From assembly GCA_964580865.1 (NCBI GenBank), contig CAZONM010000002.1, forward strand, positions 1-58,912: 58,912 bases of DNA, in the 5' to 3' direction. The notes beneath the pieces were generated by a model. That model was not told the DNA's origin. It saw nothing but the letters and a program-made list of their open reading frames with translations, and did no database searches. The DNA comes from an uncultured Myxococcales bacterium (GTDB lineage: Bacteria; Myxococcota; UBA727; VGSZ01). Shown piece by piece: positions 39,457-51,099 of the stretch (position 1 is the stretch's first letter; every line of letters begins with the position of its first letter). The position numbers and the translations under genes are program-made.

Positions 39457-40005
39457 TCAGCGCTTCGTGAACGAGCAAGGCCCGATGCGCTCGCAGTCCG
39501 CCTGGATGGCGCGCCAGCCGTCGGCCCCGATGGCCTGCAGCGCCATGGGGTAGAGGATCTCGTTCTCTTTGTGGATGTGCGAGCGCAGCACCGGCACGAT
39601 GAAGTCGGCCACCTGGCACAGCCGATCGACGAACGCCTCGTCCGCCGTGGCGTCGGTGCTCACGTGGTCCTTGAGCGCACGCTTGGCCAGGCGCAGCTCC
39701 TCGTGATCGAGGCGCATCATGTGCGGCGGCCCCTCGATGCCCACCTCCTCCATGCGCGGGAACAAGGCCTGCTCCTCGCGCTGGTGGTGCGGCTCGGCGT
39801 CGAGCAGGCTCGACGCGAGCTTCACGAGCTCTTGACGTACGGCGCCATTGGGCTCGAGGCCCGCGGCGCTTTTGCGCGCCTCCACCGCGATGGCGTCGAG
39901 CCGGTCGAGAAAGCCGAGCAGCGTGTCGTGCTCCTCCATCCACACCCGCACCGGGTGGTTCGGAGGAAGCTCGCTCGGGTTGCTCTTGCCCATGGAGGGG
40001 AACAT
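39457..40005 (-). CDS. Hemerythrin/HHE cation-binding domain protein
   Basis: AGGAG RBS; EEH, HHQREEQALFP, DHEE and HIHKENEILYP metal-ligand pattern. Confidence 0.88.
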   Translation of the reverse strand: MFPSMGKSNPSELPPNHPVRVWMEEHDTLLGFLDRLDAIAVEARKSAAGLEPNGAVRQELVKLASSLLDAEPHHQREEQALFPRMEEVGIEGPPHMMRLDHEELRLAKRALKDHVSTDATADEAFVDRLCQVADFIVPVLRSHIHKENEILYPMALQAIGADGWRAIQADCERIGPCSFTKR

Positions 40006-40048
40006 GGTGGTCTCCTGACGATGTCGTTCGCAGCCGGCCCGCTCGGTA

Positions 40049-41224
40049 TCAGTACGCGCGCTCGCCGGTCAACGCCTCACCGATGACGAGCGCGTGCACG
40101 TCGTCGGTCCCCTCGTAGGTGAACGTCGACTCCAGGTTCATCGCATGCCGCATGACGTGGTGCTCGCCCGTGATGCCGTTGGCGCCGAGGATGTTCCTGG
40201 CCGTGCGCGCCGCGTCGAGCGCGATCTTGCAGTTGTTGCGCTTGAGCAGGCTCACCTGCGGCGGCGCGAGCTTGCCCTCGTCCTTGAGGCGGCCATAGTG
40301 CACCGCGAGCAGGCTGCCCTTGGTGATCTCGTTCGCCATGTCGGCGAGCTTCACCTGCACGAGCTGCTTTCTCGCGATGGGGCCGCCGAGCTGCTTGCGC
40401 TCGCAGGCATACTCGACCGCGGTCTCGAGACACGCGCGCGCGGCGCCGAGCACGCCGAAGGCCACGCCGTAGCGCGCGCTCGTGAGGCACGAGAGCGGGC
40501 CGCGCATGCCGTGCACGTTCGGCAGGCGGTTCTTGTCGGGCACACGCACGTCCATCATCGTCAGCCCGCCGGTGTAGCTCGCGCGCAGCGAGAGCTTGTG
40601 CGGGATGTCGGTGGCCGAGAAGCCCTTCATGCCCTTCTCGAGGATGAAGCCCGTGACGTCCTTCGACTCCGACGAGGTCTGTGCCCACACCACCGCGACG
40701 TCGGCGATCTGGGCGTTGGTGATCCACATCTTCTCGCCGTTCAGCACCCACGAGTCGCCGTCTTTCACGGCGCGCGTGGTCATCTGCCCGGGGTTACTGC
40801 CCGCGTTTGGCTCGGTGAGGCCGAAGCAGCCGATGCACTTGCCCGCCGCCATGCGCGGCAGATAGTTGTTCTTCTGCTCCTCGGAACCGAAGGCGTGGAT
40901 GGCGTACATCGCCAGGCTGGTCTGCACGCTGATGAAGCTGCGCAGGCCCGAGTCGCAGGCCTCGAGCTCGTGGCACGCCAGGCCGTAGCCCACCGACGAG
41001 ATGCCGGCGCAGCCGTAGCCCTCGAGGTTGGCGCCGAGCAGTCCGAGGTCGGCCAGCTCACCGATCAGCTCCTTCGGAAAGGTGTGCTTCTCGAAGTCGT
41101 CGACGATGCGCGGCATGCAGCGCGTGCGAACGAAGCGCTTGACGTTGCGCTGGATGGTCTTCTCGTCCTCGGTCAGCAGCGATTGCCAACCGATCAGCTC
41201 GTCGAGATCAAGCCGCGTGCCCAT
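40049..41224 (-). CDS. gcdH: Glutaryl-CoA dehydrogenase (probably decarboxylating type)
   Basis: DSGLRS..SVQ, GCFGLTEP, KMWITN, KLSLRAS.TG, R.QLGGP, LGANGI and TYEGT (catalytic Glu). Confidence 0.88.
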   Translation of the reverse strand: MGTRLDLDELIGWQSLLTEDEKTIQRNVKRFVRTRCMPRIVDDFEKHTFPKELIGELADLGLLGANLEGYGCAGISSVGYGLACHELEACDSGLRSFISVQTSLAMYAIHAFGSEEQKNNYLPRMAAGKCIGCFGLTEPNAGSNPGQMTTRAVKDGDSWVLNGEKMWITNAQIADVAVVWAQTSSESKDVTGFILEKGMKGFSATDIPHKLSLRASYTGGLTMMDVRVPDKNRLPNVHGMRGPLSCLTSARYGVAFGVLGAARACLETAVEYACERKQLGGPIARKQLVQVKLADMANEITKGSLLAVHYGRLKDEGKLAPPQVSLLKRNNCKIALDAARTARNILGANGITGEHHVMRHAMNLESTFTYEGTDDVHALVIGEALTGERAY

Positions 41225-42119
41225 GGAGTCCTCCAGAGATCGTGGTGGCCGCGTCGCCGCGGCGATCGAGCTGATGACGGCGATAGGCGCCGAGCAGGGC
41301 GGCGCCCAACGCGCCTGCGTAGATGCTGTCGGCGTTCGCCACCACCTTGAGCGGCGCGCCCTTGTCGGTGGCGAGCGACTCACGCAAGGCGGTCAGCATG
41401 CCCTCGTCGAGCGCCATGCCGCCCGACACGAACACGGTGTGGTCCGCCTTGATCGCGCGCAGGAGCTTCGACAGGCGCCCGGCGATCGACACGTGGATGC
41501 CCTTCAGGATGTCCTGCGTGGTCACGCCGCGGCTCACCATGTTGATGACGTCGGTCTCGGCCAGCACCGCGCAGATGCCGCTCACCTGCTCGGGCGCCGT
41601 GGCCTTGAGCGAGAGCCCGCCCACGTCTTCCAGCGGCACGCCCAGGTAGCGCGCGATGTTCTCGACGAACTGCCCGGTCCCGCTGGCGCATTGCGAGGTC
41701 ATGCGGTGGTTGAGCACCTTGCTGCGGTCGTCGATCTTGATGGCGCGGGCATGCAAGGCGCCGATGTCGAGCACGGCGCGCGCGTCGTGCTCCAGGAAGA
41801 GCGCCCCCCGCGCGTGCGTGGTCATCGAGTAGAAGTGGCCGGTGGCGAATTTCTCTGCCGCCTCGCCGTCCCCCGTCGACGCCACGTACACGAGCTTGTC
41901 GGGCTTGATGCCCGCGCTCTTGCACGCATCGGTGAACACGCGCTCGGCGAGCTCATAGACGTTGCGGCGCCGGATGCGCTCACACACGCGCGTCACGATC
42001 TCGCCGTGCTCGCCGGCCTTGCTCTTGGTGATCACGACCTTGACGGCGCCGGCGCCGATGTCGATGCCCGCCGAGTGAACCCATGGGGCGTCGTTCCCGC
42101 GTTGATCTTGCATGGTCAT
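41208..42119 (-). CDS. bcrD: Class I benzoyl-CoA reductase subunit D (ASKHA ATPase)
   Basis: GIDIG, STGDGE, TTHARGA, DIGALH, MTSQCASGTGQF, SGICAVLAETDVINM. Confidence 0.93.
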   Translation of the reverse strand: MTMQDQRGNDAPWVHSAGIDIGAGAVKVVITKSKAGEHGEIVTRVCERIRRRNVYELAERVFTDACKSAGIKPDKLVYVASTGDGEAAEKFATGHFYSMTTHARGALFLEHDARAVLDIGALHARAIKIDDRSKVLNHRMTSQCASGTGQFVENIARYLGVPLEDVGGLSLKATAPEQVSGICAVLAETDVINMVSRGVTTQDILKGIHVSIAGRLSKLLRAIKADHTVFVSGGMALDEGMLTALRESLATDKGAPLKVVANADSIYAGALGAALLGAYRRHQLDRRGDAATTISGGLHGHAA

Positions 42120-42137: not shown

Positions 42138-43538
42138 TCAGCCGCAGCTCGCGCAGGCGTCGTCGGGTTGGGCGTAGTCCTTCATCGCCTTCTTGTCGGG
42201 CCGCTTGACGACCAGCAGGTTGGCCTTGCCGGCCCGCAGGTCGTCGAGCGCGAACAAGGCTGCGCCGAGCGCGCCCATGAAGATCGAGTCGGGGTGGACG
42301 TTGAGCGTGATGTCGTTGCCGTAGTTCTCATCGACCAGCTCGCGCAGCACCTTCGTGGCCATGTCGTTCTTGCACACACCGCCGGTGAAGGTGAGCTCGC
42401 TCTTCACGCCGCCCGAGCGCGCCAACAGGCTCATGGCGCGCAGCATGATGGCCTTATGCAGGCCCGCCAAGATGTCCTCGCGCTCCTCACCGAGCGACAG
42501 GCGCTCGCGCAGCTCGGCGCCCGCGAACACCGTGCACGTCGAGTTGATGCGCACGCTCTTGCACGACTTGAGCGCGAGCGGCCCGAGCTCGTGCAGACCG
42601 AGGTTCAGCTCGTCGGCGATGTAGCCGAGGTAGCGACCGCAGCCGGCGGCACAGCGATCGTTCATCTGAAACGTCGTCACGACACCCTTGTCGTCGACCT
42701 GGATGGCCTTGGTGTCTTGCCCGCCGATGTCGAGCACGGTGCGCGTACCGGGGAAGTACCGGTGCGCGCCGCGGCCGTGACACAGGATCTCGGAGCGCAC
42801 CGCGGCCTTGGGGAACGGCAGCGTCTGCCGCCCGTAGCCCGTGCCCGCGAACGCGATCTCGTCGATGGGCTCCGTGCCCACCGAGTCGACGATGTCGAAG
42901 AAGCGCTTCTTGGCGCCCTCGGGCAGGACGCCCGCGATGCGCCGCGCGGCGCGACCGAGCGTGGCCGCGAAGTCGAGCTCGCGCAGCTCGGTCTCGACGT
43001 CGAGGATGGCGCGATCGAACGGCCAGGTCAGCTCCTCGAAGCGCAGGCCGCGCTCGGCCGCGAGCTTCTCGGCCGCGTGCATGAAGGCCGCGCCCGCGAT
43101 GTCGCGGAAGAAGTCGCTCTTGCGCCCATCGCCGCCCAAGAACAGCGCCGGCGCGTCGCTCTGCATGCGGTCGAAGATGCCCGCGAGCGCGTCCTTCACC
43201 TGCGAGGTCCCGCGCGTGCCCGCCGCGGCCACCACCTCGGTGACGCGCTGGCGCAGCGCGGCGAGCTCGTCGAGGTAGAGCTCCAGGCGGAAGGCCGCGA
43301 GCAACTTGTCACCGAGCGCGCGGATGTCGCTCGCGCCGTCGCCCGTGAGGCCGTCGAGCTTGCGCGCGAGCAGGTTGAAGCGCGCCGAGGTCACCGCCTC
43401 GTCGCGCGCCACGGCGCTCGCCACCTCGTAATTCGAACGGCTGTTGGTGATGCCCTTGCCCACGATCTGGCCGTCCTCGTCGATGAGGATGGCCTTGGTG
43501 GTGGTGGAGCCGAGATCGACGCCGACACAGACTCTCAT
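42138..43538 (-). CDS. bcrA: Class I benzoyl-CoA reductase subunit A (ASKHA ATPase)
   Basis: GVDLGSTTTKA, GITNSRSNY, GTGYGR, SEILCHG.GAH, DIGGQDTK, MNDRCAAGCG, NSTCTVFA. Confidence 0.94.
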   Translation of the reverse strand: MRVCVGVDLGSTTTKAILIDEDGQIVGKGITNSRSNYEVASAVARDEAVTSARFNLLARKLDGLTGDGASDIRALGDKLLAAFRLELYLDELAALRQRVTEVVAAAGTRGTSQVKDALAGIFDRMQSDAPALFLGGDGRKSDFFRDIAGAAFMHAAEKLAAERGLRFEELTWPFDRAILDVETELRELDFAATLGRAARRIAGVLPEGAKKRFFDIVDSVGTEPIDEIAFAGTGYGRQTLPFPKAAVRSEILCHGRGAHRYFPGTRTVLDIGGQDTKAIQVDDKGVVTTFQMNDRCAAGCGRYLGYIADELNLGLHELGPLALKSCKSVRINSTCTVFAGAELRERLSLGEEREDILAGLHKAIMLRAMSLLARSGGVKSELTFTGGVCKNDMATKVLRELVDENYGNDITLNVHPDSIFMGALGAALFALDDLRAGKANLLVVKRPDKKAMKDYAQPDDACASCG

Positions 43539-44914
43539 GCGTTGCTCCCAATCACGACGGGTGCGGGACCCGACGCGGCGATCTTTCCGTTGCGACGCGC
43601 CTCGAGCATCTGCAGGTAGCTCTGCAGGCGGTTCTCGATGTTGGCCTTGCCGAAGTAGCGCGGATCGACGAGGTCACTCTCGACGAACGCGCCGGGCACG
43701 CCGGTGCGCTTCTCGAGCTCGCGCAGGATCATGAGCTGCCCGGCCGAGAACGAGTTGCAGCTCTTCACCGAGTTGATGAGGAAGCCGTCGGCGGAGTAGC
43801 TCTTGATGTACTTCTCGAGCAGGTCGATGCGGCTCGGCAGCGAGCGGTTCGTGTAGCAGCCGAGGCAGTAGTCGGCGAGCGTGCCGAGCGGGTCCTGCGG
43901 ATCGTGACGGAAGCCCTGATCGTACAGGCCGCCGACGCGCGTGTACGTCGACGCCACCGCGATGGCGCCTTCGTTCGAGAACATGTTCCAGAACTCGTTG
44001 AAGTGGGTCCAGCTCGGCGGACCCTCCACCACCAGGCGGTACTTCTGGTTGTTCATGACGCCGGCGGGCGTCATGGGCCCCTCACCGGCCTTGATGCGCT
44101 CGTTGACCTCGGCGAGCAGCTCCTCGTAGTAGGCCACGGCGTCTTCGCTGCCGCGGAAAGCCGAGAAGATGGGCCCGATGTAATAGACGCCACCGAAGTA
44201 GCCATCGATGGGCGACGGCTTGTTCCGCGCCGACTCCCACACCTTGACCAGCGCGTCCTCGGCGCGGCGCGAGCGCGCCAGCTGCTCCGACAGCTTGTCG
44301 AGGCTGAGCTTCATCCCCGTGATCTGCTCCATCTGCGGGATGACGTCGCTCTTGAGCTGATCGACGACGTACTGCCGCATCTCGGGCGTGATGTTGCCGT
44401 CGGCCTGATAGGGCACGTGCAGCATCACCACGGGGCAGTTGTATTCGGCCTTGAGCAGCTCGAACCACTTCATGAAGGTGAAGCAGCCCGTGTACGAGAG
44501 CAGCAAGAGGTCGGGGCTCGGCAGCGTCTTGCCCGTTGGGCCCACGTTGCCGGTGCGCAGCATGCCGATGTCGCACTTGACGTAGCTGCACACGTCCTCA
44601 CTGTGCCCGCCGCGCTCGGCCTCGCTGATGTACGCGCCGCTCTTGCCGCGCATGCCCGACTGCAGGGCGTTGATCTCGGGCAGCACCGGCAGCATCTCGA
44701 ACGCGCCCATGAGCTCGGTGAGGTTGCCAGGCACGAAGGTGTAGGCCACCTTCTTGCCGTCGGCCTTCGCCGTCGAGAGACGGTCGAAGTGCTCGGCGAT
44801 CATGCGCTTCTGCCGCTGTTGGCTTGCGTCTTTGGTGGTCGGCACGGTGACGGCCGAGCCCTCCGACGGAGGCGCGCCCTTGGAACCCTTGGAACCGATG
44901 TTGACGAGGCTCAT
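43535..44914 (-). CDS. bcrB: Class I benzoyl-CoA reductase subunit B
   Basis: FVPGNL.EL, PEINALQ, DVCSYVK.D, YTGCFTFMKWFE, SCNSFSAGQ, ESDLVDPRYF; ATGA overlap with bcrC. Confidence 0.93.
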   Translation of the reverse strand: MSLVNIGSKGSKGAPPSEGSAVTVPTTKDASQQRQKRMIAEHFDRLSTAKADGKKVAYTFVPGNLTELMGAFEMLPVLPEINALQSGMRGKSGAYISEAERGGHSEDVCSYVKCDIGMLRTGNVGPTGKTLPSPDLLLLSYTGCFTFMKWFELLKAEYNCPVVMLHVPYQADGNITPEMRQYVVDQLKSDVIPQMEQITGMKLSLDKLSEQLARSRRAEDALVKVWESARNKPSPIDGYFGGVYYIGPIFSAFRGSEDAVAYYEELLAEVNERIKAGEGPMTPAGVMNNQKYRLVVEGPPSWTHFNEFWNMFSNEGAIAVASTYTRVGGLYDQGFRHDPQDPLGTLADYCLGCYTNRSLPSRIDLLEKYIKSYSADGFLINSVKSCNSFSAGQLMILRELEKRTGVPGAFVESDLVDPRYFGKANIENRLQSYLQMLEARRNGKIAASGPAPVVIGSNA

Positions 44915-46104
44915 GCCGCTGACTCCCACAGGCGCACGGCGTCGGAGAAGGCGCCAGCCTGTTCACGAATGACCTGGAACTGCCCGGTGTTCTCGGCGTA
45001 CTTGAACGAGGTGAAGGGGATGCCCGCGCCCTCGCACGCGGCCTCGAGCATCGGCTGATCGAGCAACGCGGGGTCGCAGAACGACGCGGCCGCGAAGATG
45101 ACGCCGTCGGCCTTGGCGCGCTTGACCTGCTCGAGCAGCGCCGCGCCCTTCTGGCCCTCGCCGATGTAGCGCGACGCGGTCGCCTTGCCCTTGTGCAGGA
45201 AGGCGTTGACGATGGCGTCGAGCGGATCGCCGACGTCGTCGATCATGCCCTCCATGTAGTCGAGCCCGAGCTGCAGATCGTCGGAGATGATGTCGCAGCC
45301 GGCGCGCTCGAGGCTCTTGATGAGGCCGAAGGGCGGCTGCTCGCAGAAGCTGCCCACCAGCACCACGCGCACGTTGTCCTTGGGCTGGCCCGTGCGCTTG
45401 CCCGCCGCCGCCACGTACTCCTCGACGAGCGAGGCGTGCTCACGCGCGCTGACAGCGCCGCCGGCGCGGGTCACCAGGTAGGCCTCGGAGGCCGGCACGC
45501 GCCACGAGGCGTCGCGGCGCAGGGCCGCGAGCTTGTCGAGCGCCGCGCGGCGCACGTTCTCGTCCTTGATGGCCGCGCGCAGCCCCTCGTCGGTGAGGGC
45601 CTTGGCGCCGCGCTCGTGGAGCTCGCGCGCTAGGCGCTTGAGCTCGAGCTTGTAGAAGCGGCCGCCCACCTCGGGGCGGAAGTTCTGCGGCAGATCGAGG
45701 TACGCCGCCCACTTCTGCGGGAACAGCATCTGCCACATGCCGCTCAGGTTGCGGATGACGTCGCAGATGGCGGGAAAGATCATGCCGTCGAGCGAGTCGA
45801 GCATGCCGGTGAGGCCGAGCTCGATGGTGCTGCGCGGGATATGGCAGATGTAGCTCTGGAAGTACGAGTCGCCGCGGATGATGTCCTTGTCCCCGGCGCC
45901 GTAGATGGCCACCGGGAGCACGCCGATGGCCTCGAGCAGCACGCGCGGCGTGTAGATGGGCATGTGGCCGATGGCGAGCGCGCCCTTGTTCTTGTCCTTC
46001 CACGCCTTGACCGGCGCGGTGCCGTAGTCGTCGACGAGCGCCTGCGCGCGCTTGAGGACCGCCGCGGCGGGGTCGTTCGTGGAAGCGGTGGGTTGAGCGG
46101 TCAT
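44911..46104 (-). CDS. bcrC: Class I benzoyl-CoA reductase subunit C
   Basis: GDSYFQSYICHIPRSTIELG, CDVIRNLSG, GSFCEQPP, SFCDPALLD, FKYAENTGQFQVIREQAG.F. Confidence 0.93.
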   Translation of the reverse strand: MTAQPTASTNDPAAAVLKRAQALVDDYGTAPVKAWKDKNKGALAIGHMPIYTPRVLLEAIGVLPVAIYGAGDKDIIRGDSYFQSYICHIPRSTIELGLTGMLDSLDGMIFPAICDVIRNLSGMWQMLFPQKWAAYLDLPQNFRPEVGGRFYKLELKRLARELHERGAKALTDEGLRAAIKDENVRRAALDKLAALRRDASWRVPASEAYLVTRAGGAVSAREHASLVEEYVAAAGKRTGQPKDNVRVVLVGSFCEQPPFGLIKSLERAGCDIISDDLQLGLDYMEGMIDDVGDPLDAIVNAFLHKGKATASRYIGEGQKGAALLEQVKRAKADGVIFAAASFCDPALLDQPMLEAACEGAGIPFTSFKYAENTGQFQVIREQAGAFSDAVRLWESAA

Positions 46105-46835
46105 GCGCTATCTCCCGGTGACTTGACGAGCTGCAACAGAGGAAGGGGCTTCTTGCCGGCCAAGCGCTCGACGGTCTCGGTGACGTCGGCGTTGGCGTCG
46201 TGCATGGGGCATGCGGGCCGCAGGCCGCACAACAGCAAGCGGTGGAGCGTGTGGGCGAGCACCTGTGGTGTGCCGTGCACGGCCGGGCGGTACCAGCCGT
46301 AGGTCCAGTTGATCATCCCGAACAGGGCGTAGGTCTGGCGTTCGAGCTCGAGCGGATCGACCTTGGCCTTCTTGGCGGCGCCGTTCTTCTTGGGCGTGCA
46401 CGACGCCTCGTCGAGCACGCCGGCGACGACGTCGCGACCGATGGCGTAGTAGCGCTCCTTGACGGCGCGCACCACCGCGCGCTGCTTGGGCGGCAGCGCA
46501 TGCGCCTCTTGGATCAGCACCTGCATGATCGCGTGATTGCTCGCCACGTACTGCACGTGCTGCTGGATGAACGCGTAGAGCTTGTCGACGGGCGAGCTGC
46601 CCTGCGCCACCGCCGCCGTCGCCGACTGCACCAGCGTCTCGAAGGCGCGCTGCTGCAGATCGGCGAGCAGATCCTCCTTCGACGCGTAGTAGTTGTAGAA
46701 GCCCGCCGGTGTCTTGCCGAGCGCCTTGGCCAGATCGCGCATCGACATGCCGTGGAAGCCGTGCTTCGCCAGCACGCCCGCCGCGGCCTCGAGGATCTCG
46801 AGGCGTCCTTCCGCTTTGCGGGAGGGACGCGCCAT
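46101..46835 (-). CDS. TetR-family regulator (KstR2/PaaR-like C-terminal domain)
   Basis: HTH ILEAAA...GFHGMSMRDLA..LG...FYNYYASKEDLL; C-terminal FGMINWTYGWY.P; overlaps both neighbours. Confidence 0.92.
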   Translation of the reverse strand: MARPSRKAEGRLEILEAAAGVLAKHGFHGMSMRDLAKALGKTPAGFYNYYASKEDLLADLQQRAFETLVQSATAAVAQGSSPVDKLYAFIQQHVQYVASNHAIMQVLIQEAHALPPKQRAVVRAVKERYYAIGRDVVAGVLDEASCTPKKNGAAKKAKVDPLELERQTYALFGMINWTYGWYRPAVHGTPQVLAHTLHRLLLCGLRPACPMHDANADVTETVERLAGKKPLPLLQLVKSPGDSA

Positions 46836-47605
46836 CAGCGGTCCTCCCACGCGGGTCTGCGCCGCTCGAGGAATGACGCGATGCCCTCGTTGGCGTCGTG
46901 GCTCGGCAGCAGCTCCTCGACGTACTGCCGCTCGGCGACGTCGAGGGCGCCCTCGAGCGCGTGCAGCAAGCCGCCCGCGCGCCGCGCCACCTTGGTGGCC
47001 TGACGGATCGCGAAGGCCGACAGCGGCGCCAGGTGCTCGCGGTACCAAGCGAACACCTCGGCCTCGTCGACGACGATCTTGCTGACGAAGCCGCTGCGCG
47101 CCGCCTCGTCGGCGTTGATGGTGGCCCCGGTGATGACCAGCCGCTCGCCGAGCGCGTGCCCCAGGCGCAGCGGGCCGATGGCGGCGAGCACCGGCGGGAA
47201 CACGCCGAGCTTCACCTCGGGGCAGCCGAACTTCGCGTCCGACGTGCAGAACACCAGGTGGCAGGCGCACACGACCTCGAAGGCGCCGCCCAGGCACTGC
47301 CCGCGCACCAGCGCGGCCACCGGCACCGGGTGCGCGGCCAGCGCGCGGATGAAGCGATGGAAGGCCGCCAGCATGCCGGGCGCGGCCTCCTTCTTGTGCT
47401 CTTCCACCGAGGCGCCGAACGAGAAGTGCGCGCCATCGCCCTCGAGCACCACCAGCTTGAGCTTGGGGTCGTCCTTGTGCTCGTCGAGCGCGGCGGTGAT
47501 GGCGGACATCATCGCCATCGAGAAGATGTTGCCCTTGCCGCCCGTGAGCAGCACGCGCTGCACGCGTCCGTCCTCGAGCATCTCGGTGCGCACCAGTCGC
47601 GTCAT
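46835..47605 (-). CDS. dch: Cyclohexa-1,5-diene-1-carbonyl-CoA hydratase (crotonase fold)
   Basis: KGNIF, HFSFGASVEEH, CLGGAFE, FGCPEVKLGVFPP, DANEGI..F; context within the bcr cluster. Confidence 0.85.
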   Translation of the reverse strand: MTRLVRTEMLEDGRVQRVLLTGGKGNIFSMAMMSAITAALDEHKDDPKLKLVVLEGDGAHFSFGASVEEHKKEAAPGMLAAFHRFIRALAAHPVPVAALVRGQCLGGAFEVVCACHLVFCTSDAKFGCPEVKLGVFPPVLAAIGPLRLGHALGERLVITGATINADEAARSGFVSKIVVDEAEVFAWYREHLAPLSAFAIRQATKVARRAGGLLHALEGALDVAERQYVEELLPSHDANEGIASFLERRRPAWEDR

Positions 47606-47615
47606 CGCCGCCCCC

Positions 47616-48743
47616 TCACTCGCTCATCAGCTTCTTGAATGCCGGCCGCGCCGAGGCGGGCAGCACGCTCTCCACCAGCTCTTGGTTGAAGCGCGCGCCC
47701 TCGGCCACGCGGCGGCGCAGCTGCGCGAAGTCGATCTCGCGCTCCTTGCCCTCGCCGAAGTGGAAGGCGGGGAAGCCGGCCATCGCCTCGGTGTTCATGT
47801 TGAGCGACAGCCAGCTCCGGCTGGTCTCGCAGTTCTTCTGCCAGGCCTCGAGCTTCTTCTTCCGGAAGCTCTCGAGCGTCTTCCGCGTGCAGTCGGGGAA
47901 GGTGTAGAGGAGCTTGGTGACGAGGGCGTTCACCGCCTTGTCGAGGAGCGTGAGGTCAATCTCGCACTCGCTCGCCGCGGCCTTCGCCTTCTCCTTGGCG
48001 TCGCCGTCCTTGAAGTCGCCGTACACCACGCGACCGTACTCATCGAGAAACCGCTCGGTGACGACGTACGGGTTGGCGATGAAGGTGCCGTCCTTCTTCT
48101 TGTGCACGGGCACGATCTCGTTGACGATGCCGAAGTGCATGGCCTTGTGCGCCGACCATGGCTCGCACAAGACCAGCGACTCGGGCGCGCGCCCCACGCC
48201 CACGTACAAGTCGAGGAAGTCGGTGCTGCCGCCGTCGGGCGCCGAGCCGTGCTTGGGCCCCGCCTGGCCGTAGCGCGCGTGATCACCGGAGACGGTGAAG
48301 TCACACGCCATGCCGATTTCCTGGCCGCCGCCGATGCGCATGCCGTTGGCGCGGCACACGACGGGCTTGTCGCACAGCAGGATCGTCGTCACCATGTCGT
48401 TGAACAGGCGCATGTACTGCGCGTACTCGAGGGGACGACCGGCGTAGTACGTGGTGTACTCCTCGGTGTTGCCGCCGGTGCAGAAGGCCCGGTCGCCCAC
48501 CGCCGTGAACACCACGGCCACCGCGCGGCGATCGCAGCTCGCACGACGGAACGCCAGGATCACGTCCTTGACCGTATCCGTGGTGTAGCTGTTGAGCTGC
48601 TTTGGGTTGTTGAGCGAGATCCACACCTGATGCAGCCCGGCGACCTCATTGCCTGCGGTGTCGAGCACCGGCTTGGTCTCGTATTTGATGTGCGAGAAGA
48701 CGTAGTCGGCGACGAGCTCGTGGTTCCTGAGGGTGAGGGCCAT
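47616..48743 (-). CDS. oah: 6-oxocyclohex-1-ene-1-carbonyl-CoA hydrolase (ring cleaving)
   Basis: AAGGAG RBS; LNNPKQLNSYTT, FCTGGNT.EY..YYAGRP.EY, GMRIGGGQEIGMACD, QAGPKHGSAPDGGSTDFL, NMNTEA. Confidence 0.93.
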   Translation of the reverse strand: MALTLRNHELVADYVFSHIKYETKPVLDTAGNEVAGLHQVWISLNNPKQLNSYTTDTVKDVILAFRRASCDRRAVAVVFTAVGDRAFCTGGNTEEYTTYYAGRPLEYAQYMRLFNDMVTTILLCDKPVVCRANGMRIGGGQEIGMACDFTVSGDHARYGQAGPKHGSAPDGGSTDFLDLYVGVGRAPESLVLCEPWSAHKAMHFGIVNEIVPVHKKKDGTFIANPYVVTERFLDEYGRVVYGDFKDGDAKEKAKAAASECEIDLTLLDKAVNALVTKLLYTFPDCTRKTLESFRKKKLEAWQKNCETSRSWLSLNMNTEAMAGFPAFHFGEGKEREIDFAQLRRRVAEGARFNQELVESVLPASARPAFKKLMSE

Positions 48744-48772
48744 GGTTCGCTCCTTTGGATCGAAGGGAGTGC

Positions 48773-49834
48773 TCAGAGGCGGGGATCGAGGGTGACGCGG
48801 CGCGTGAGCGTGTGCGCGCGCATGGCGTCGAGCACGGCGTTGACCTCGCGCATCGGGCGCACCTCGCAGAAGGGCGCGAGCGCGATCTTGCCGGCAGCGA
48901 TGAGGCGCAAGACCTCCGGGTATTGCTCGGGCGGGCAGCCCCACGTGCCGTGCACCGTGGCGTCGAACGCCATCAGGTTCGACAGGCGCACGGTGACGCG
49001 TTCGGGCGTGAAGCCCACCTGCACCATGGTCGAGCAGCGGCCGAGCAGCGAGAACGCGATCTCCTGCGTGGCCGGCAGGCCCGCGCACTCGAAGACCCGG
49101 GTCTTCCACGTGTCGATGCCGAAGCCCTTGGCCAGCTTGCTCGCCTCGTCGCGCACGGCCTTCACGTCCTTGCCGCGCGTGTTGATGGTGGCGGCAGCGC
49201 CGTGCTTGGCCATGAGCGACAGCCGCTCGTCGGCGACGTCAAGGGCGATGACCTTGGCGCCGAGCGCCGCGCACGCCTGGATGACGAAGCCGCCCACGCC
49301 GCCCGCGCCCACCACGTAGCACAGGTCGCCCTCGCTCACGCCGGCGCGGCGCGTCGCCTGCCACGCGGTCGACACGGCGTCGGCGACCACCGAGTACATG
49401 CGCACGTCGACGCCGCCGGTGTCGGCCAGCACCTGGAGCGGGCGCGCGGGCACGAGCAGGTGGGTGGCGAAGGCGCCGTGGATGTCGTTGCCCGGCATCT
49501 TCTGTTTGGGGCACGCGTTGCCGCGGCCCGCCTTGCACAGCGCGCACTCGCCGCAGGGCAGCACCGCGGGCACCACCACGGTCTTACCCACGAGGTGCAG
49601 GAAGGCGTCGCCCGCCTCCACCACCTTGCCGACGGCCTCGTGGCCGAGCACCAGCGGCAGCGGGTGGTTCGTGCGCACGCCACCGTCGGCGAAGCCGAGG
49701 TCGGTGTGGCACAGGCCGTTGCCCCACACCTCCACCACGGCCTCCCCCGGGCCCGGCGCCGGGATGGGCAGCTCGCGCTCCACCAGCGGAGCCTTGGGCT
49801 CGACGAGAAACCAGGCCTTGGCGGTGATGGTCAT
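48773..49834 (-). CDS. had: 6-hydroxycyclohex-1-ene-1-carbonyl-CoA dehydrogenase (Zn-dependent MDR)
   Basis: GLCHTDL, LVLGHE, PCGECALCKAGRGNAC..QKMPGND..G.FATH, VVADAVST, RLSNLMAFDA...G.WGCPP. Confidence 0.9.
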   Translation of the reverse strand: MTITAKAWFLVEPKAPLVERELPIPAPGPGEAVVEVWGNGLCHTDLGFADGGVRTNHPLPLVLGHEAVGKVVEAGDAFLHLVGKTVVVPAVLPCGECALCKAGRGNACPKQKMPGNDIHGAFATHLLVPARPLQVLADTGGVDVRMYSVVADAVSTAWQATRRAGVSEGDLCYVVGAGGVGGFVIQACAALGAKVIALDVADERLSLMAKHGAAATINTRGKDVKAVRDEASKLAKGFGIDTWKTRVFECAGLPATQEIAFSLLGRCSTMVQVGFTPERVTVRLSNLMAFDATVHGTWGCPPEQYPEVLRLIAAGKIALAPFCEVRPMREVNAVLDAMRAHTLTRRVTLDPRL

Positions 49835-49871
49835 GGGGGCCCTCGCGGGAGATCGGGGAGATCGTTTGTTA

Positions 49872-49889
49872 CATGAACGTTCGTTCATG
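49872..49889. promoter_or_regulatory. Perfect inverted repeat CATGAACG-TT-CGTTCATG; candidate TetR operator of the had-oah-dch-tetR-bcr operon
   Basis: 8-bp arms with a 2-bp spacer in an AT-richer patch 38-55 nt upstream of the had ATG. Confidence 0.75.
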
Positions 49890-49899
49890 GAACCTGGGC

Positions 49900-49905
49900 T
49901 GTCAA
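49900..49905 (-). promoter_or_regulatory. Candidate sigma70-type -35 hexamer TTGACA
   Basis: Exact TTGACA on the minus strand 10 nt upstream of the palindrome. The expected -10 position falls inside the palindrome and is a poor match (GAACGT). Confidence 0.4.
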
Positions 49906-50025
49906 GCTGGGAATCGGCGCGTCCGGACGCGGGCGATGGGCGGTCGAGCGACGCCTCGGCGGGCGCGCGCTTGGCCGCGCGGTCTGCACCGGGCGTGCGA
50001 CCGGCGAGCCGCAGGGCCGAGCCGC

Positions 50026-51099
50026 TCACGCCCCCGCGCCAGGCGCCTTTGCTCCCACGCGTCGCAAGAACGCCATGAAGCGCTCCGGCTCCTCGAAGCA
50101 CGGGGCGTGCGCCGATCGCTCGAACACCAGGTGGGCCTTGGTGGGCGCCTCGATCGTCTTGACATAGCTCTCGACGAGGTGCGGCGGCGTGTTCATGTCG
50201 TGTGCCCCCGAGACGAAGTAGACGGGCACGTCGAAGCGCCGGACCGTCGACGTGATGTCGATGGACATCGCCTCGGGCCACATGGCGTTCATGGTCCGCA
50301 GGAAGGCGCTCATGAATTGCAGCTTGTCGAGCACGCTGTACTCCGACGCGAGCATCAGCGGTGCGACCAGGAGGCCTGCGCCCCTCTCGTCGTGGACCAT
50401 GCCGCCCGACTCGAGCAGCCAGCGCTTCTGCGTCTCGAAGTTGGCAGCGGCGCGTGGCCCCGACCACGGCGGCGGCCCGATGCTCGCGAGCTCGCGTTCC
50501 GCCTCTGCGTTGCCGGCGTCGCGCGCCCAGCGGAGCAGGAGGCGATACGACTCGGCCTCACGCCTCACCCCGTCGGTCCACTGGCCGACGCCGACGTAGG
50601 CGTGCACCACGTCCGGGCGCTGCGCGGCGATGCGCGCGCCCACGATGGTGCCCCAGGAGTGGGCGACGAGCGTGACCTTGTCGACGCCGAACCGGCCGCG
50701 CAGCGTCTCAATGAGTTGGATCGCATCGCGCTGCATCTGGTGGTGCGTCATGGTGCCCGGCGGCACCGCGCGCGCGGCGGAGCGCCCCTGGCCGCGCATG
50801 TCCCATGTCACCACCACGAAGTCGCGCTCGAGGGGCTCGAGGTAGGTGCGCACCATGGGCATCTCGGTGGCGCCGGGCCCGCCATGCAGGAAGAGCAACA
50901 CCGGGTTGTCTCTGCGCTGGCCGCGCAGGAGTACTGCCTGCTCAACGCCACCGAGCTCGATCCACTCGAGCGACGCCACGCCCGTCGCCATCGGAACGCC
51001 GTCCTCGGAGCGGATCGGGGGCGTGCTCGCGCACGCGGTGAGCGCAACGACCAACGCGACCGCCCTCACGTTCAAGAGCTTGCGAAGGAGGATCGTCAT
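50026..51099 (-). CDS. Exported alpha/beta hydrolase (proline-iminopeptidase-like), probable lipoprotein
   Basis: LVVALTAC lipobox; LFLHGGPG, WDMRGQG, AHSWG, SGAHD, SAHAP. Confidence 0.85.
   Translation of the reverse strand: MTILLRKLLNVRAVALVVALTACASTPPIRSEDGVPMATGVASLEWIELGGVEQAVLLRGQRRDNPVLLFLHGGPGATEMPMVRTYLEPLERDFVVVTWDMRGQGRSAARAVPPGTMTHHQMQRDAIQLIETLRGRFGVDKVTLVAHSWGTIVGARIAAQRPDVVHAYVGVGQWTDGVRREAESYRLLLRWARDAGNAEAERELASIGPPPWSGPRAAANFETQKRWLLESGGMVHDERGAGLLVAPLMLASEYSVLDKLQFMSAFLRTMNAMWPEAMSIDITSTVRRFDVPVYFVSGAHDMNTPPHLVESYVKTIEAPTKAHLVFERSAHAPCFEEPERFMAFLRRVGAKAPGAGA

What the first reader, a model, noticed from the sequence alone, without database searches (positions are those of the whole stretch)
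46101..49905. Operon-embedded TetR plus a perfect operator: candidate new regulator of anaerobic benzoyl-CoA metabolism
Seen: tetR overlaps dch (TGATG) and bcrC (ATGA), and CATGAACG-TT-CGTTCATG lies between a TTGACA and the first gene. Knowledge: described regulators of this pathway are BzdR, BadR/BadM/AadR and BamVW/BgeR; KstR2/PaaR-type TetRs are released by acyl/aryl-CoA thioesters, and the Thermus PaaR site as I recall it has the same AACG-N2-CGTT core. No FNR box is visible. Inference: an autoregulated repressor sensing benzoyl-CoA or a ring-reduced CoA ester.
Basis: partly seen in the sequence, partly recalled or inferred. Interest (0 to 1): 0.7.

Follow-up and report, generated by a model that had tools for sequence, protein, structure and literature searches.

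The report
TetR repressor of benzoyl-CoA operon
A small regulator gene sits inside an operon for oxygen-free breakdown of aromatic rings, and its likely DNA docking site lies on the operon's promoter; the same gene-plus-site pair recurs in about 60 related operons from several bacterial phyla, so it is very probably the pathway's on/off switch, of a familiar type.

Summary
On the minus strand the window encodes had-oah-dch-tetR-bcrCBAD. The dch/tetR overlap (TGATG) and the tetR/bcrC overlap (ATGA) are real. A perfect 8+8 palindrome, CATGAACG-NN-CGTTCATG (49872-49889), lies between a TTGACA and had.

The palindrome alone is only mildly unusual. The comparative evidence is what decides it:
- 75 of 80 loci encoding a relative of this TetR carry it inside the same operon. 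The MAGs are labelled Myxococcota, Acidobacteriota, Eisenbacteria, Gemmatimonadota and Planctomycetota.
- 63 of 71 loci with upstream DNA have CGAACGWWCGTTCG within 300 bp of the first operon gene, about 120-fold enriched.
- The site follows whichever gene comes first (had, oah or tetR).
- The consensus equals the published Thermus PaaR site, CNAACGNNCGTTNG.
- The closest solved structures are CoA-thioester-sensing TetRs (PfmR, AibR, KstR2, FadR).

Best reading: an autoregulated TetR repressor occludes the promoter and is released by a pathway CoA thioester, most likely benzoyl-CoA. DNA binding and the effector are inferred, not shown.

This is therefore a new, widespread member of a known kind. 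Interest is moderate.

The parts
49872..49889 (.). Predicted TetR operator: perfect palindrome CATGAACG-NN-CGTTCATG. The conserved 12-nt core GAACGNNCGTTC is at 49875-49886.
   Evidence: The same core lies upstream of the first gene in 63 of 71 orthologous operons. It matches the published Thermus PaaR consensus.
49900..49905 (-). TTGACA hexamer, a possible -35 element or activator half-site, 10 nt upstream of the palindrome.
   Evidence: It is invariant in the window, L001 and L002. No canonical -10 lies at 16-18 nt.
49853..49906 (-). Phylogenetic footprint: a promoter/operator block that is nearly invariant among the window, L001 and L002, while the rest of the intergenic region has diverged. 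It contains a possible -10, TAACAA, at 49871-49866.
   Evidence: Alignment A2. RNA contigs of runs X25 and X27 end at 49849 and 49854. The -10 assignment is inference.
48773..49834 (-). had, 6-hydroxycyclohex-1-ene-1-carbonyl-CoA dehydrogenase; first gene of the operon.
   Evidence: TIGR03201, 388 bits, above cut-off.
47616..48743 (-). oah, 6-oxocyclohex-1-ene-1-carbonyl-CoA hydrolase.
   Evidence: TIGR03200, 521 bits, above cut-off.
46835..47605 (-). dch, cyclohexa-1,5-diene-1-carbonyl-CoA hydratase (probable).
   Evidence: Best hit TIGR03189, 221 bits, below the cut-off of 292. The position is conserved.
46101..46835 (-). tetR, 244 aa. TetR-family regulator with a TetR_C_24 ligand domain. 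Its start overlaps the dch stop (TGATG) and its stop overlaps the bcrC start (ATGA).
   Evidence: It sits in the same place in orthologous operons.
44911..46104 (-). bcrC, benzoyl-CoA reductase subunit C.
   Evidence: TIGR02263, 435 bits.
43535..44929 (-). bcrB, benzoyl-CoA reductase subunit B.
   Evidence: TIGR02260, 681 bits.
42138..43538 (-). bcrA, benzoyl-CoA reductase subunit A.
   Evidence: TIGR02259, 527 bits, slightly below the cut-off of 578.
41208..42119 (-). bcrD, benzoyl-CoA reductase subunit D.
   Evidence: TIGR02261, 326 bits.
40049..41383 (-). Acyl-CoA dehydrogenase ORF after bcrD, given at its maximal extent. The true start is probably near 41200, because the Pfam match begins at residue 71. 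It likely belongs to the same transcription unit.
   Evidence: PF02771, PF02770 and PF00441.
39457..40005 (-). Hemerythrin-domain protein, the last gene in the same direction.
   Evidence: PF01814. Whether it belongs to the operon was not tested.

Best explanation
The 244-aa TetR-family protein encoded between dch and bcrC is the specific repressor of its own operon, had-oah-dch-tetR-bcrCBAD(-acd).

Proposed mechanism:
1. A TetR dimer binds the palindrome TGAACG-NN-CGTTCA (family consensus CGAACGWWCGTTCG).
2. The palindrome overlaps the core promoter, about 40 nt upstream of had, so the bound dimer blocks RNA polymerase.
3. When a CoA thioester of the pathway accumulates, it binds the C-terminal domain, the repressor leaves the DNA, and the whole operon is transcribed. 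Benzoyl-CoA, the substrate of the reductase, is the most likely effector.
4. The regulator is transcribed with the operon and is translationally coupled to dch and bcrC. This makes a negative autoregulatory loop.

Shown here: gene order and overlaps; family membership; structural kinship to CoA-thioester-sensing TetRs; conservation, position and specificity of the site.

Inferred: that this protein binds this site, that it represses, and which molecule releases it.
For: Linkage of the TetR to the pathway:
- 75 of 80 loci found with the TetR family profile have the gene next to had/oah/dch/bcr. In most it lies exactly between dch and bcrC. The MAGs are labelled as at least five phyla.
- The partner reductase can be Thauera-type, bzd-type (L003, L004, L050, L078) or class II bamB-like (L012). 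This points to a signal common to all of them.

The site:
- The 12-nt core with at most 1 mismatch occurs 109 times in 20.9 kb of upstream DNA against 51 times in the other 1.2 Mb, about 120-fold enrichment. 63 of 71 loci are positive.
- G5 and C8 of the core are invariant in 53-54 of 54 unique sites.
- The site follows the first gene whether that gene is had (54 loci), oah (4) or tetR (5).
- In many loci the site fills the spacer between a TTGAC -35 and a TAnnnT -10.
- Among the window, L001 and L002, the block from TTGACA to just past the palindrome is conserved while the rest of the intergenic region is not.

Motif-first search:
- The 18-mer CGAACGAACGTTCGTTCG occurs at 97 places in 185,579 genomes.
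- 34 of them have a TetR-type gene within 400 bp. About 17 more lie in front of had/oah/bcr clusters.

Precedent and structure:
- The consensus equals the experimentally defined Thermus PaaR site, CNAACGNNCGTTNG (PMC9493321).
- The AF2 model (pLDDT 87) is closest to PfmR, AibR with isovaleryl-CoA, KstR2 and FadR (by sequence).

RNA:
- RNA-run contigs cover the tetR/bcrC and dch/oah junctions.
- In two runs the contigs end 18-23 nt downstream of the palindrome.
Against: - There is no binding, repression or ligand experiment.
- The window has no canonical sigma-70 promoter. TTGACA is 28 nt from the only plausible TAnnnn hexamer.
- One RNA-run contig (X13) runs through the palindrome up to 50001. 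Transcription may therefore also start upstream, or DNA may be present in that run. All RNA evidence is at a depth of about 3, from assembled contigs without strand information.
- A few operator-bearing clusters (L098, L153, L170) show no TetR gene in the 8 kb held.
- The motif also fits the Gram-positive-type LexA box, CGAAC-N4-GTTCG (recalled from memory).
- Sequence orthology to Thermus PaaR itself could not be tested.
Confidence: 0.7

Rival explanations
1. The same repressor and operator, but the effector is not benzoyl-CoA. It would be a later intermediate (cyclohexa-1,5-diene-1-carbonyl-CoA, 6-hydroxy- or 6-oxocyclohexenoyl-CoA, 3-hydroxypimelyl-CoA, glutaryl-CoA) or another aryl-CoA such as phenylacetyl-CoA.
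For: - The constant partners of the TetR are had, oah and dch at least as much as the reductase. The reductase type varies.
- The operator is identical to that of the phenylacetyl-CoA sensor PaaR.
- Two family members (L063, L067) sit next to a 3-hydroxyacyl-CoA dehydrogenase instead.
Against: Characterised regulators of CoA-dependent aromatic pathways usually sense the first thioester: BzdR, BoxR and GenR sense benzoyl-CoA, MbdR senses 3-methylbenzoyl-CoA, and PaaR and PaaX sense phenylacetyl-CoA (PMC4424350). No paa genes are linked to this TetR.
Confidence: 0.22
2. The palindrome is bound by a different protein. One candidate is LexA, since the site fits the Cheo-type SOS box CGAAC-N4-GTTCG. 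Another is an unlinked regulator. The embedded TetR would then control something else.
For: - The site fits GAAC-N4-GTTC formally. The LexA consensus is recalled from memory.
- About half of the 97 genome-wide 18-mer hits have no detectable TetR nearby. Many of these are in Actinomycetota or Chloroflexota.
Against: - The operon is catabolic, not a DNA-repair operon.
- The site is the same in MAGs of at least five phyla and tracks the TetR gene, including stand-alone tetR genes (L040, L050, L078).
- The two bases inside the 'N4' are invariant.
- A TetR (Thermus PaaR) is known to bind exactly this consensus.
- No lexA gene is in the window.
Confidence: 0.04
3. The palindrome is a chance feature or an RNA or terminator element with no role in DNA binding.
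For: Perfect 8+8 inverted repeats are as common in the window as expected for its composition (31 against 24.7).
Against: - The site is conserved across 63 of 71 orthologous promoters while the flanks diverge.
- A 2-nt loop cannot form a hairpin.
- No T-run or terminator was found.
Confidence: 0.01

Closest known systems
PaaR of Thermus thermophilus HB8 (TetR family; Sakamoto et al. 2011, as summarised in PMC9493321)
   Same: - TetR-family repressor of a CoA-dependent aromatic pathway.
- Its operator consensus CNAACGNNCGTTNG is matched exactly by the family consensus found here, CGAACGWWCGTTCG.
- It is released by the first aryl-CoA of its pathway.
   Different: - PaaR controls paa (aerobic hybrid phenylacetate) genes and senses phenylacetyl-CoA. 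This protein is embedded in had-oah-dch-bcr operons, with no paa genes nearby.
- The window's own site has T...A at the outermost positions instead of C...G.
MbdR of Azoarcus/Aromatoleum sp. CIB (TetR family, PDB 4uds; PMC4424350)
   Same: - TetR-family repressor of a benzoyl-CoA-reductase-type (mbd) gene cluster for anaerobic aromatic degradation.
- Its operator overlaps -10/+1.
- It is released by the aryl-CoA substrate.
- It is autoregulated.
   Different: - Its operator is different (ATACN10GTAT). None lies near this operon.
- 4uds is not among the 59 PDB sequences matching at E <= 1e-3.
- mbdR has its own promoter and is not embedded between catabolic genes.
PfmR of Thermus thermophilus (PDB 3vpr), AibR of Myxococcus xanthus (5k7f/5k7h/5k7z), FadR of Bacillus (3whb/3whc, 5gp9), KstR2 (4w1u/4w97)
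   Same: - These are the closest solved sequences and folds. PfmR: profile E 9e-30, TM 0.9, 26% identity.
- AibR, FadR and KstR2 are acyl-CoA-responsive TetR repressors of CoA-thioester metabolism.
- Bacillus fadR is also embedded in its target operon (from memory).
   Different: - The ligands and regulons differ.
- This family has a C-terminal tail of about 40 aa and an insertion at residues 145-160 that PfmR lacks.
BzdR with AcpR at the PN promoter of Azoarcus sp. CIB (PMC6678401)
   Same: - Same logic: a benzoyl-CoA-released repressor sits over the core promoter of the reductase operon.
- In 16 of 63 orthologous loci here, an FNR-type box lies just upstream of the operator, as the AcpR box does at -41.5 in PN.
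   Different: - BzdR is an XRE/shikimate-kinase-like protein with TGCA repeats and three operator regions.
- The window itself has no FNR box.

Membership tests
TetR/AcrR family | N-terminal TetR_N helix-turn-helix plus an all-helical C-terminal ligand domain. | tested here: met
   PF00440 (52 bits) and PF17932 TetR_C_24 (66 bits), both above cut-off. The AF2 model is all-helical, pLDDT 87.
Acyl-/aryl-CoA-responsive TetR repressors (PfmR, AibR, FadR, KstR2, PaaR group) | Sequence and fold closest to TetRs solved with CoA-thioester ligands. | tested here: met
   The top PDB hits are 3vpr, 3ccy, 5k7f, 3dcf, 1vi0/3whb, 5gp9 and 4w1u. Foldseek TM(target) is 0.80-0.90.
Acyl-/aryl-CoA-responsive TetR repressors (PfmR, AibR, FadR, KstR2, PaaR group) | Binds a CoA thioester, which releases it from DNA. 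| not testable with these tools
   Needs EMSA or ITC with benzoyl-CoA and related esters. Only the invariant basic and aromatic residues R119, R123, K126, Y129, F172, W177 and W181 were noted.
Thermus PaaR type | Operator CNAACGNNCGTTNG. | tested here: met
   The family consensus from 54 unique sites is CGAACGWWCGTTCG. The window site TGAACGAACGTTCA keeps the AACGNNCGTT core but has T/A at the outer positions. The PaaR consensus is taken from PMC9493321.
Thermus PaaR type | Linked to and regulating paa (phenylacetate) genes. | tested here: not met
   There are no paa genes in the window or beside the 80 related loci. The partners are had, oah, dch and bcr.
Thermus PaaR type | Orthology to TthPaaR by sequence. 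| not tested
MbdR type | ATACN10GTAT operator, and sequence similarity to PDB 4uds. | tested here: not met
   No such site lies near the operon. 4uds is absent from all 59 PDB hits at E <= 1e-3.
Any curated NCBIfam equivalog (FadR, KstR, FasR, SACE_7040 and others) | Score above the family's curated cut-off. | tested here: not met
   The best hit is the SACE_7040 family at 76.8 bits against a cut-off of 250. All others score lower.
LexA (Cheo-type) SOS box | CGAAC-N4-GTTCG upstream of DNA-damage genes, specific to the phylum's LexA. | tested here: inconclusive
   The pattern fits formally. However, the genes are catabolic, the site is the same across MAGs of at least five phyla, and it tracks the TetR gene. 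SOS genes of the same genome could not be examined.

The most novel reading that the evidence does not exclude
This would be the founding example of an undescribed subfamily of TetR sensors specific for benzoyl-CoA or dienoyl-CoA.
- The subfamily is small: about 20 clusters at 50% identity.
- It would be the dedicated switch of benzoyl-CoA reductase operons (Thauera-type, bzd-type and class II alike) in uncultured Myxococcota, Acidobacteriota, Eisenbacteria, Gemmatimonadota and Planctomycetota.
- It would have kept the DNA specificity of Thermus PaaR while its effector pocket was retuned.
- It would supply a ready-made repressor and operator pair for a benzoyl-CoA biosensor.
Probability: 0.5. 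Interest if true: 0.6.

Novelty: new member of a known kind. Interest (0 to 1): 0.5.

Why it matters
- Specific regulators of the anaerobic benzoyl-CoA pathway are known from only a few cultured Proteobacteria: BzdR, BadR/BadM, BamVW, BgeR and MbdR.
- This finding gives a concrete regulator-plus-operator pair that is conserved in about 60 operons of mostly uncultured lineages from soils, sludge and groundwater.
- It makes regulation of aromatic-ring reduction in those organisms directly testable with one protein and a 14-bp site.
- It offers a genomic marker for the regulon: CGAACGWWCGTTCG next to had, oah or bcr.
- It is a candidate part for aryl-CoA biosensors.
- It also illustrates that one operator type is reused by TetR relatives controlling different CoA-thioester pathways.

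Tried and rejected
- The original PaaR and PfmR papers (PMC3165508, PMC3415517) are not held. PaaR could therefore not be aligned with this TetR, and the PfmR operator could not be checked.
- The promoter and terminator scan of 49700-50200 found nothing. The -35/-10 assignment in the window stays open.
- I scanned genome contigs for the window-type 18-mer CATGAACGNNCGTTCATG to find further regulon members in the two close MAGs. In JADZDP01 and JACOUT01 only the known operon sites appeared. This says nothing about regulon size.
- In the window, no second site with at most 1 mismatch lies in an intergenic position of interest. There is one exact site only.
- RNA runs exist only as low-depth assembled contigs without strand, and they disagree. 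X25 and X27 stop at 49849 and 49854, while X13 runs to 50001. They are not decisive for the transcription start.
- MbdR-type operator: absent.
- Hairpin or terminator reading of the palindrome: rejected, because the loop would be 2 nt and there is no T-run.
- The recognition helices of TetRs next to the same 18-mer in other phyla were aligned. They show only the general TetR pattern (SxxxLYxYFxSKE) and are not diagnostic.

Full report
**1. What is in the window**

Reading the minus strand of 45900-50300 and scanning the ORFs against NCBIfam and Pfam gives one tightly packed gene string.

| Gene | Coordinates (minus strand) | Best family hit |
|---|---|---|
| had | 49834-48773 | TIGR03201, 388 bits |
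| oah | 48743-47616 | TIGR03200, 521 bits |
| dch | 47605-46835 | TIGR03189, below cut-off |
| tetR | 46835-46101 | PF00440 + PF17932 (TetR_C_24), 244 aa |
| bcrC | 46104-44911 | TIGR02263 |
| bcrB | 44929-43535 | TIGR02260 |
| bcrA | 43538-42138 | TIGR02259 |
| bcrD | 42119-41208 | TIGR02261 |

- An acyl-CoA dehydrogenase and a hemerythrin-domain gene follow in the same direction.
- GGAGG-like ribosome-binding sites precede both starts.
- The rest of the 71% GC window holds Ser/Thr kinases, sigma-54 activators, glycoside hydrolases and a methylmalonyl-CoA mutase. It contains no benzoate-CoA ligase, ferredoxin, lexA or second regulator next to the operon.
- DNA runs that hold the sequence come from sludge and bioreactor metagenomes.

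**2. The palindrome**

- CATGAACG-TT-CGTTCATG (+ strand, 49872-49889) is a perfect 8+8 inverted repeat. It extends to 12-nt arms at 92% complementarity.
- It lies 10 nt downstream of a TTGACA (49905-49900) and 37 nt upstream of the had ATG.
- It is unique in the window even at 3 mismatches.
- I checked how special that is. Perfect 8+8 repeats are common in such GC-rich DNA (31 found, 24.7 +/- 5.9 expected). This is the only one with GC <= 50% (0.11 expected).
- The window alone therefore gives weak statistics, and the case rests on comparison with other loci.

**3. Comparative test, protein first**

- The TetR has 115 homologues at E <= 1e-10. A profile of 34 of them (A1) retrieved 80 loci from the species-representative genome collection. 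All are MAGs.
- tblastn with the eight window proteins shows that 75 of 80 loci carry the TetR next to had/oah/dch/bcr genes. In most it lies exactly between dch and bcrC.
- The MAGs are labelled Myxococcota/Polyangiaceae, Acidobacteriota (Thermoanaerobaculia, Vicinamibacterales), Candidatus Eisenbacteria, Gemmatimonadota and Planctomycetota.
- In L003, L004, L050 and L078 the reductase is only about 30% identical to the window's, so it is of a different type, probably bzd-type.
- In L012 the TetR precedes a bamB-like tungsten oxidoreductase and a CCG-domain protein, that is, a class II reductase.
- The regulator is therefore tied to the pathway rather than to one enzyme type.
- A full HMMER search of 1.84 billion representatives finds only about 20 clusters above 200 bits and 187 at E <= 1e-30. 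This is a small, sharply defined subfamily.

**4. The site is conserved**

- Scanning the 80 loci for the 12-nt core GAACGNNCGTTC with at most 1 mismatch gives 109 hits in the 20.9 kb that lie within 300 bp upstream of the first operon gene. The remaining 1.2 Mb gives 51 hits. That is about 120-fold enrichment.
- 63 of the 71 loci with upstream DNA are positive. Most negatives are contigs that end near the operon.
- The core ends a median 39 nt before the start codon.
- The site follows the first gene whichever it is: had in 54 loci, oah in 4, tetR in 5. This includes stand-alone or leading tetR genes (L040, L050, L078).
- The matrix from 54 unique sites reads C-G-A-A-C-G-W-W-C-G-T-T-C-G. The inner G and C are invariant in 53-54 of 54 sites.
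- In many loci a TTGAC abuts the site on the left and a TAnnnT follows on the right, so the site fills the -35/-10 spacer.
- Among the window and its two closest relatives, the block from TTGACA to about 20 nt past the palindrome (49906-49853) is almost invariant. The upstream intergenic DNA is scrambled.

**5. Comparative test, motif first**

- Many orthologues carry the longer perfect palindrome CGAACGAACGTTCGTTCG. An exact search of 185,579 genomes finds it at 97 places.
- 34 of these have a TetR-type ORF within 400 bp. They come from Bipolaricaulota, Thermotogota, Chloroflexota, Actinomycetota and others.
- About 17 more lie in front of had/oah/bcr clusters.
- The motif is therefore an operator type used by a wider clade of PfmR/PaaR-like TetRs. 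This links the DNA to this kind of protein independently of the benzoyl-CoA context.

**6. What the protein resembles**

- By sequence and by fold (AF2 model pLDDT 87; Foldseek), the closest solved proteins are:
  - Thermus PfmR (3vpr; profile E 9e-30, TM 0.9, 26% identity);
  - Myxococcus AibR with isovaleryl-CoA;
  - KstR2;
  - Bacillus and Thermus FadR;
  - BkaR.
- Several of these are known sensors of CoA thioesters: AibR with isovaleryl-CoA, and FadR with stearoyl- or lauroyl-CoA, according to the entry titles.
- No curated NCBIfam equivalog is reached.
- The family has invariant basic and aromatic residues on the ligand-domain helices: R119, R123, K126, Y129, F172, W177, W181 and H187. 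That they hold the CoA and the acyl group is my inference.

**7. Literature**

- The Thermus PaaR consensus is CNAACGNNCGTTNG, and phenylacetyl-CoA releases PaaR (review PMC9493321 citing Sakamoto 2011).
MbdR is a TetR-family repressor of the mbd benzoyl-CoA-reductase-type cluster in Azoarcus sp. CIB. Its operator is ATACN10GTAT, its inducer is 3-methylbenzoyl-CoA, and its structure is PDB 4uds (PMC4424350).
- A TetR (Orf880) has also been predicted for the 4-methylbenzoyl-CoA cluster of Magnetospirillum (PMC4268860).
- The present protein is not an MbdR relative. 4uds is absent from the PDB hits, and no MbdR operator is near the operon.
- Searches for TetR together with bcr, dch and oah, or with PaaR and benzoyl-CoA, found no description of this family.

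**8. Mechanism**

The best-supported model is a classical TetR switch.
- A dimer sits on the palindrome over the core promoter and blocks transcription.
- A pathway CoA thioester releases it.
- Because tetR is transcribed and translationally coupled with the enzymes, the loop is negatively autoregulated.
- Benzoyl-CoA is the most likely effector. It is the one metabolite common to all three reductase types found with this TetR. First thioesters are also the usual inducers in this kind of pathway (PMC4424350).
- A later ring-reduced ester cannot be excluded.
- In 16 of 63 orthologous promoters an FNR/CRP-type box (TTGA-N6-TCAA) lies at a fixed distance upstream of the operator. This mirrors the AcpR-plus-BzdR layout of the Azoarcus PN promoter (PMC6678401). 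The window has no such box.

**9. Weak points**

- The window has no canonical -10 at 16-18 nt from TTGACA. Candidates are GAACGT inside the operator or TAACAA just after it.
- Metatranscriptome contigs support expression and co-transcription across the gene junctions.
- In two runs the contigs end at 49849 and 49854, just downstream of the site. In a third run a contig continues to 50001.
- RNA depth is about 3, and DNA carry-over is possible.
- The motif also fits the Gram-positive-type LexA box, CGAAC-N4-GTTCG (recalled from memory). I rate this reading low, for three reasons: the genes are catabolic, the site is identical across phyla and follows the TetR gene, and the 'N4' bases next to the arms are invariant.

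**10. Verdict**

- Novelty is that of a new, widespread member of a known kind: aryl- or acyl-CoA-responsive TetR repressors such as PaaR and MbdR.
- Interest is moderate. The value lies in a precise and cheap experiment, and in a regulon marker for uncultured anaerobic degraders of aromatic compounds.

Noticed in passing
L012, L017, L031, L036, L045, L056, L060, L073 and 8 more loci, 18-40 nt upstream of the operator core. The window region 49835-50025 has none.: FNR/CRP-type boxes (TTGA-N6-TCAA, for example TTGATCCAAATCAA in L031) sit at fixed offsets upstream of the TetR operator in 16 of 63 orthologous promoters. This suggests anaerobic activation combined with TetR repression. The window lineage lacks the box and keeps only a TTGACA.
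   Followed up: partly
L010, L011, L016, L020, L025, L027, L037, L041, L072 (upstream of had), and L081-L177.: Many orthologues carry an 18-bp perfect palindrome, CGAACGAACGTTCGTTCG. It equals two 14-bp sites offset by 4 bp, whereas the window has a single register. The 18-mer occurs at 97 places in 185,579 genomes. 34 of these are next to TetR-type genes of other phyla, such as Bipolaricaulota, Thermotogota, Chloroflexota and Actinomycetota.
   Followed up: partly
L012:3775-8491: A family member in a MAG labelled as a betaproteobacterium precedes a bamB-like aldehyde:ferredoxin-oxidoreductase gene and a CCG/4Fe-4S protein (class II benzoyl-CoA reductase). It has its own operator and an FNR-like box about 200 nt upstream of tetR.
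   Followed up: partly
L178-L257 (Fimbriiglobus MAGs JAYVXO01, JAYSXU01, JANLRE01): The window-type 18-mer CATGAACGNNCGTTCATG is dispersed over dozens of contigs of three Fimbriiglobus MAGs, sometimes twice per contig. It looks like a repeat family unrelated to this operon.
   Followed up: no
window 49792-50001; 49849/49854; 49837/49889: RNA-run contigs disagree on the 5' boundary. X25 and X27 stop just downstream of the palindrome, while X13 runs through it to 25 nt below the stop codon of the upstream gene. Contigs of run X14 (kind unknown) break on either side of the palindrome.
   Followed up: partly
window 46101-46222 (TetR residues about 205-244) and residues 145-160: The family has a C-terminal tail of about 40 aa (LCGL..CP....PLL, moderately conserved, pLDDT 67-79) and a variable basic loop. 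Both are absent from the closest solved relative, PfmR. Their function is unknown.
   Followed up: no
window 39457-41383: The operon continues after bcrD with an acyl-CoA dehydrogenase and a hemerythrin-domain protein. There is no ferredoxin, benzoate-CoA ligase or 2-oxoglutarate:ferredoxin oxidoreductase gene anywhere in the 58.9-kb window, so the electron donor and the activating enzyme must be encoded elsewhere.
   Followed up: partly
L098, L153, L170: Clusters with had-oah-dch and a bzd-type reductase, preceded by the 18-bp operator, show no TetR gene in the 8 kb held. The regulator may be encoded elsewhere in these genomes.
   Followed up: no
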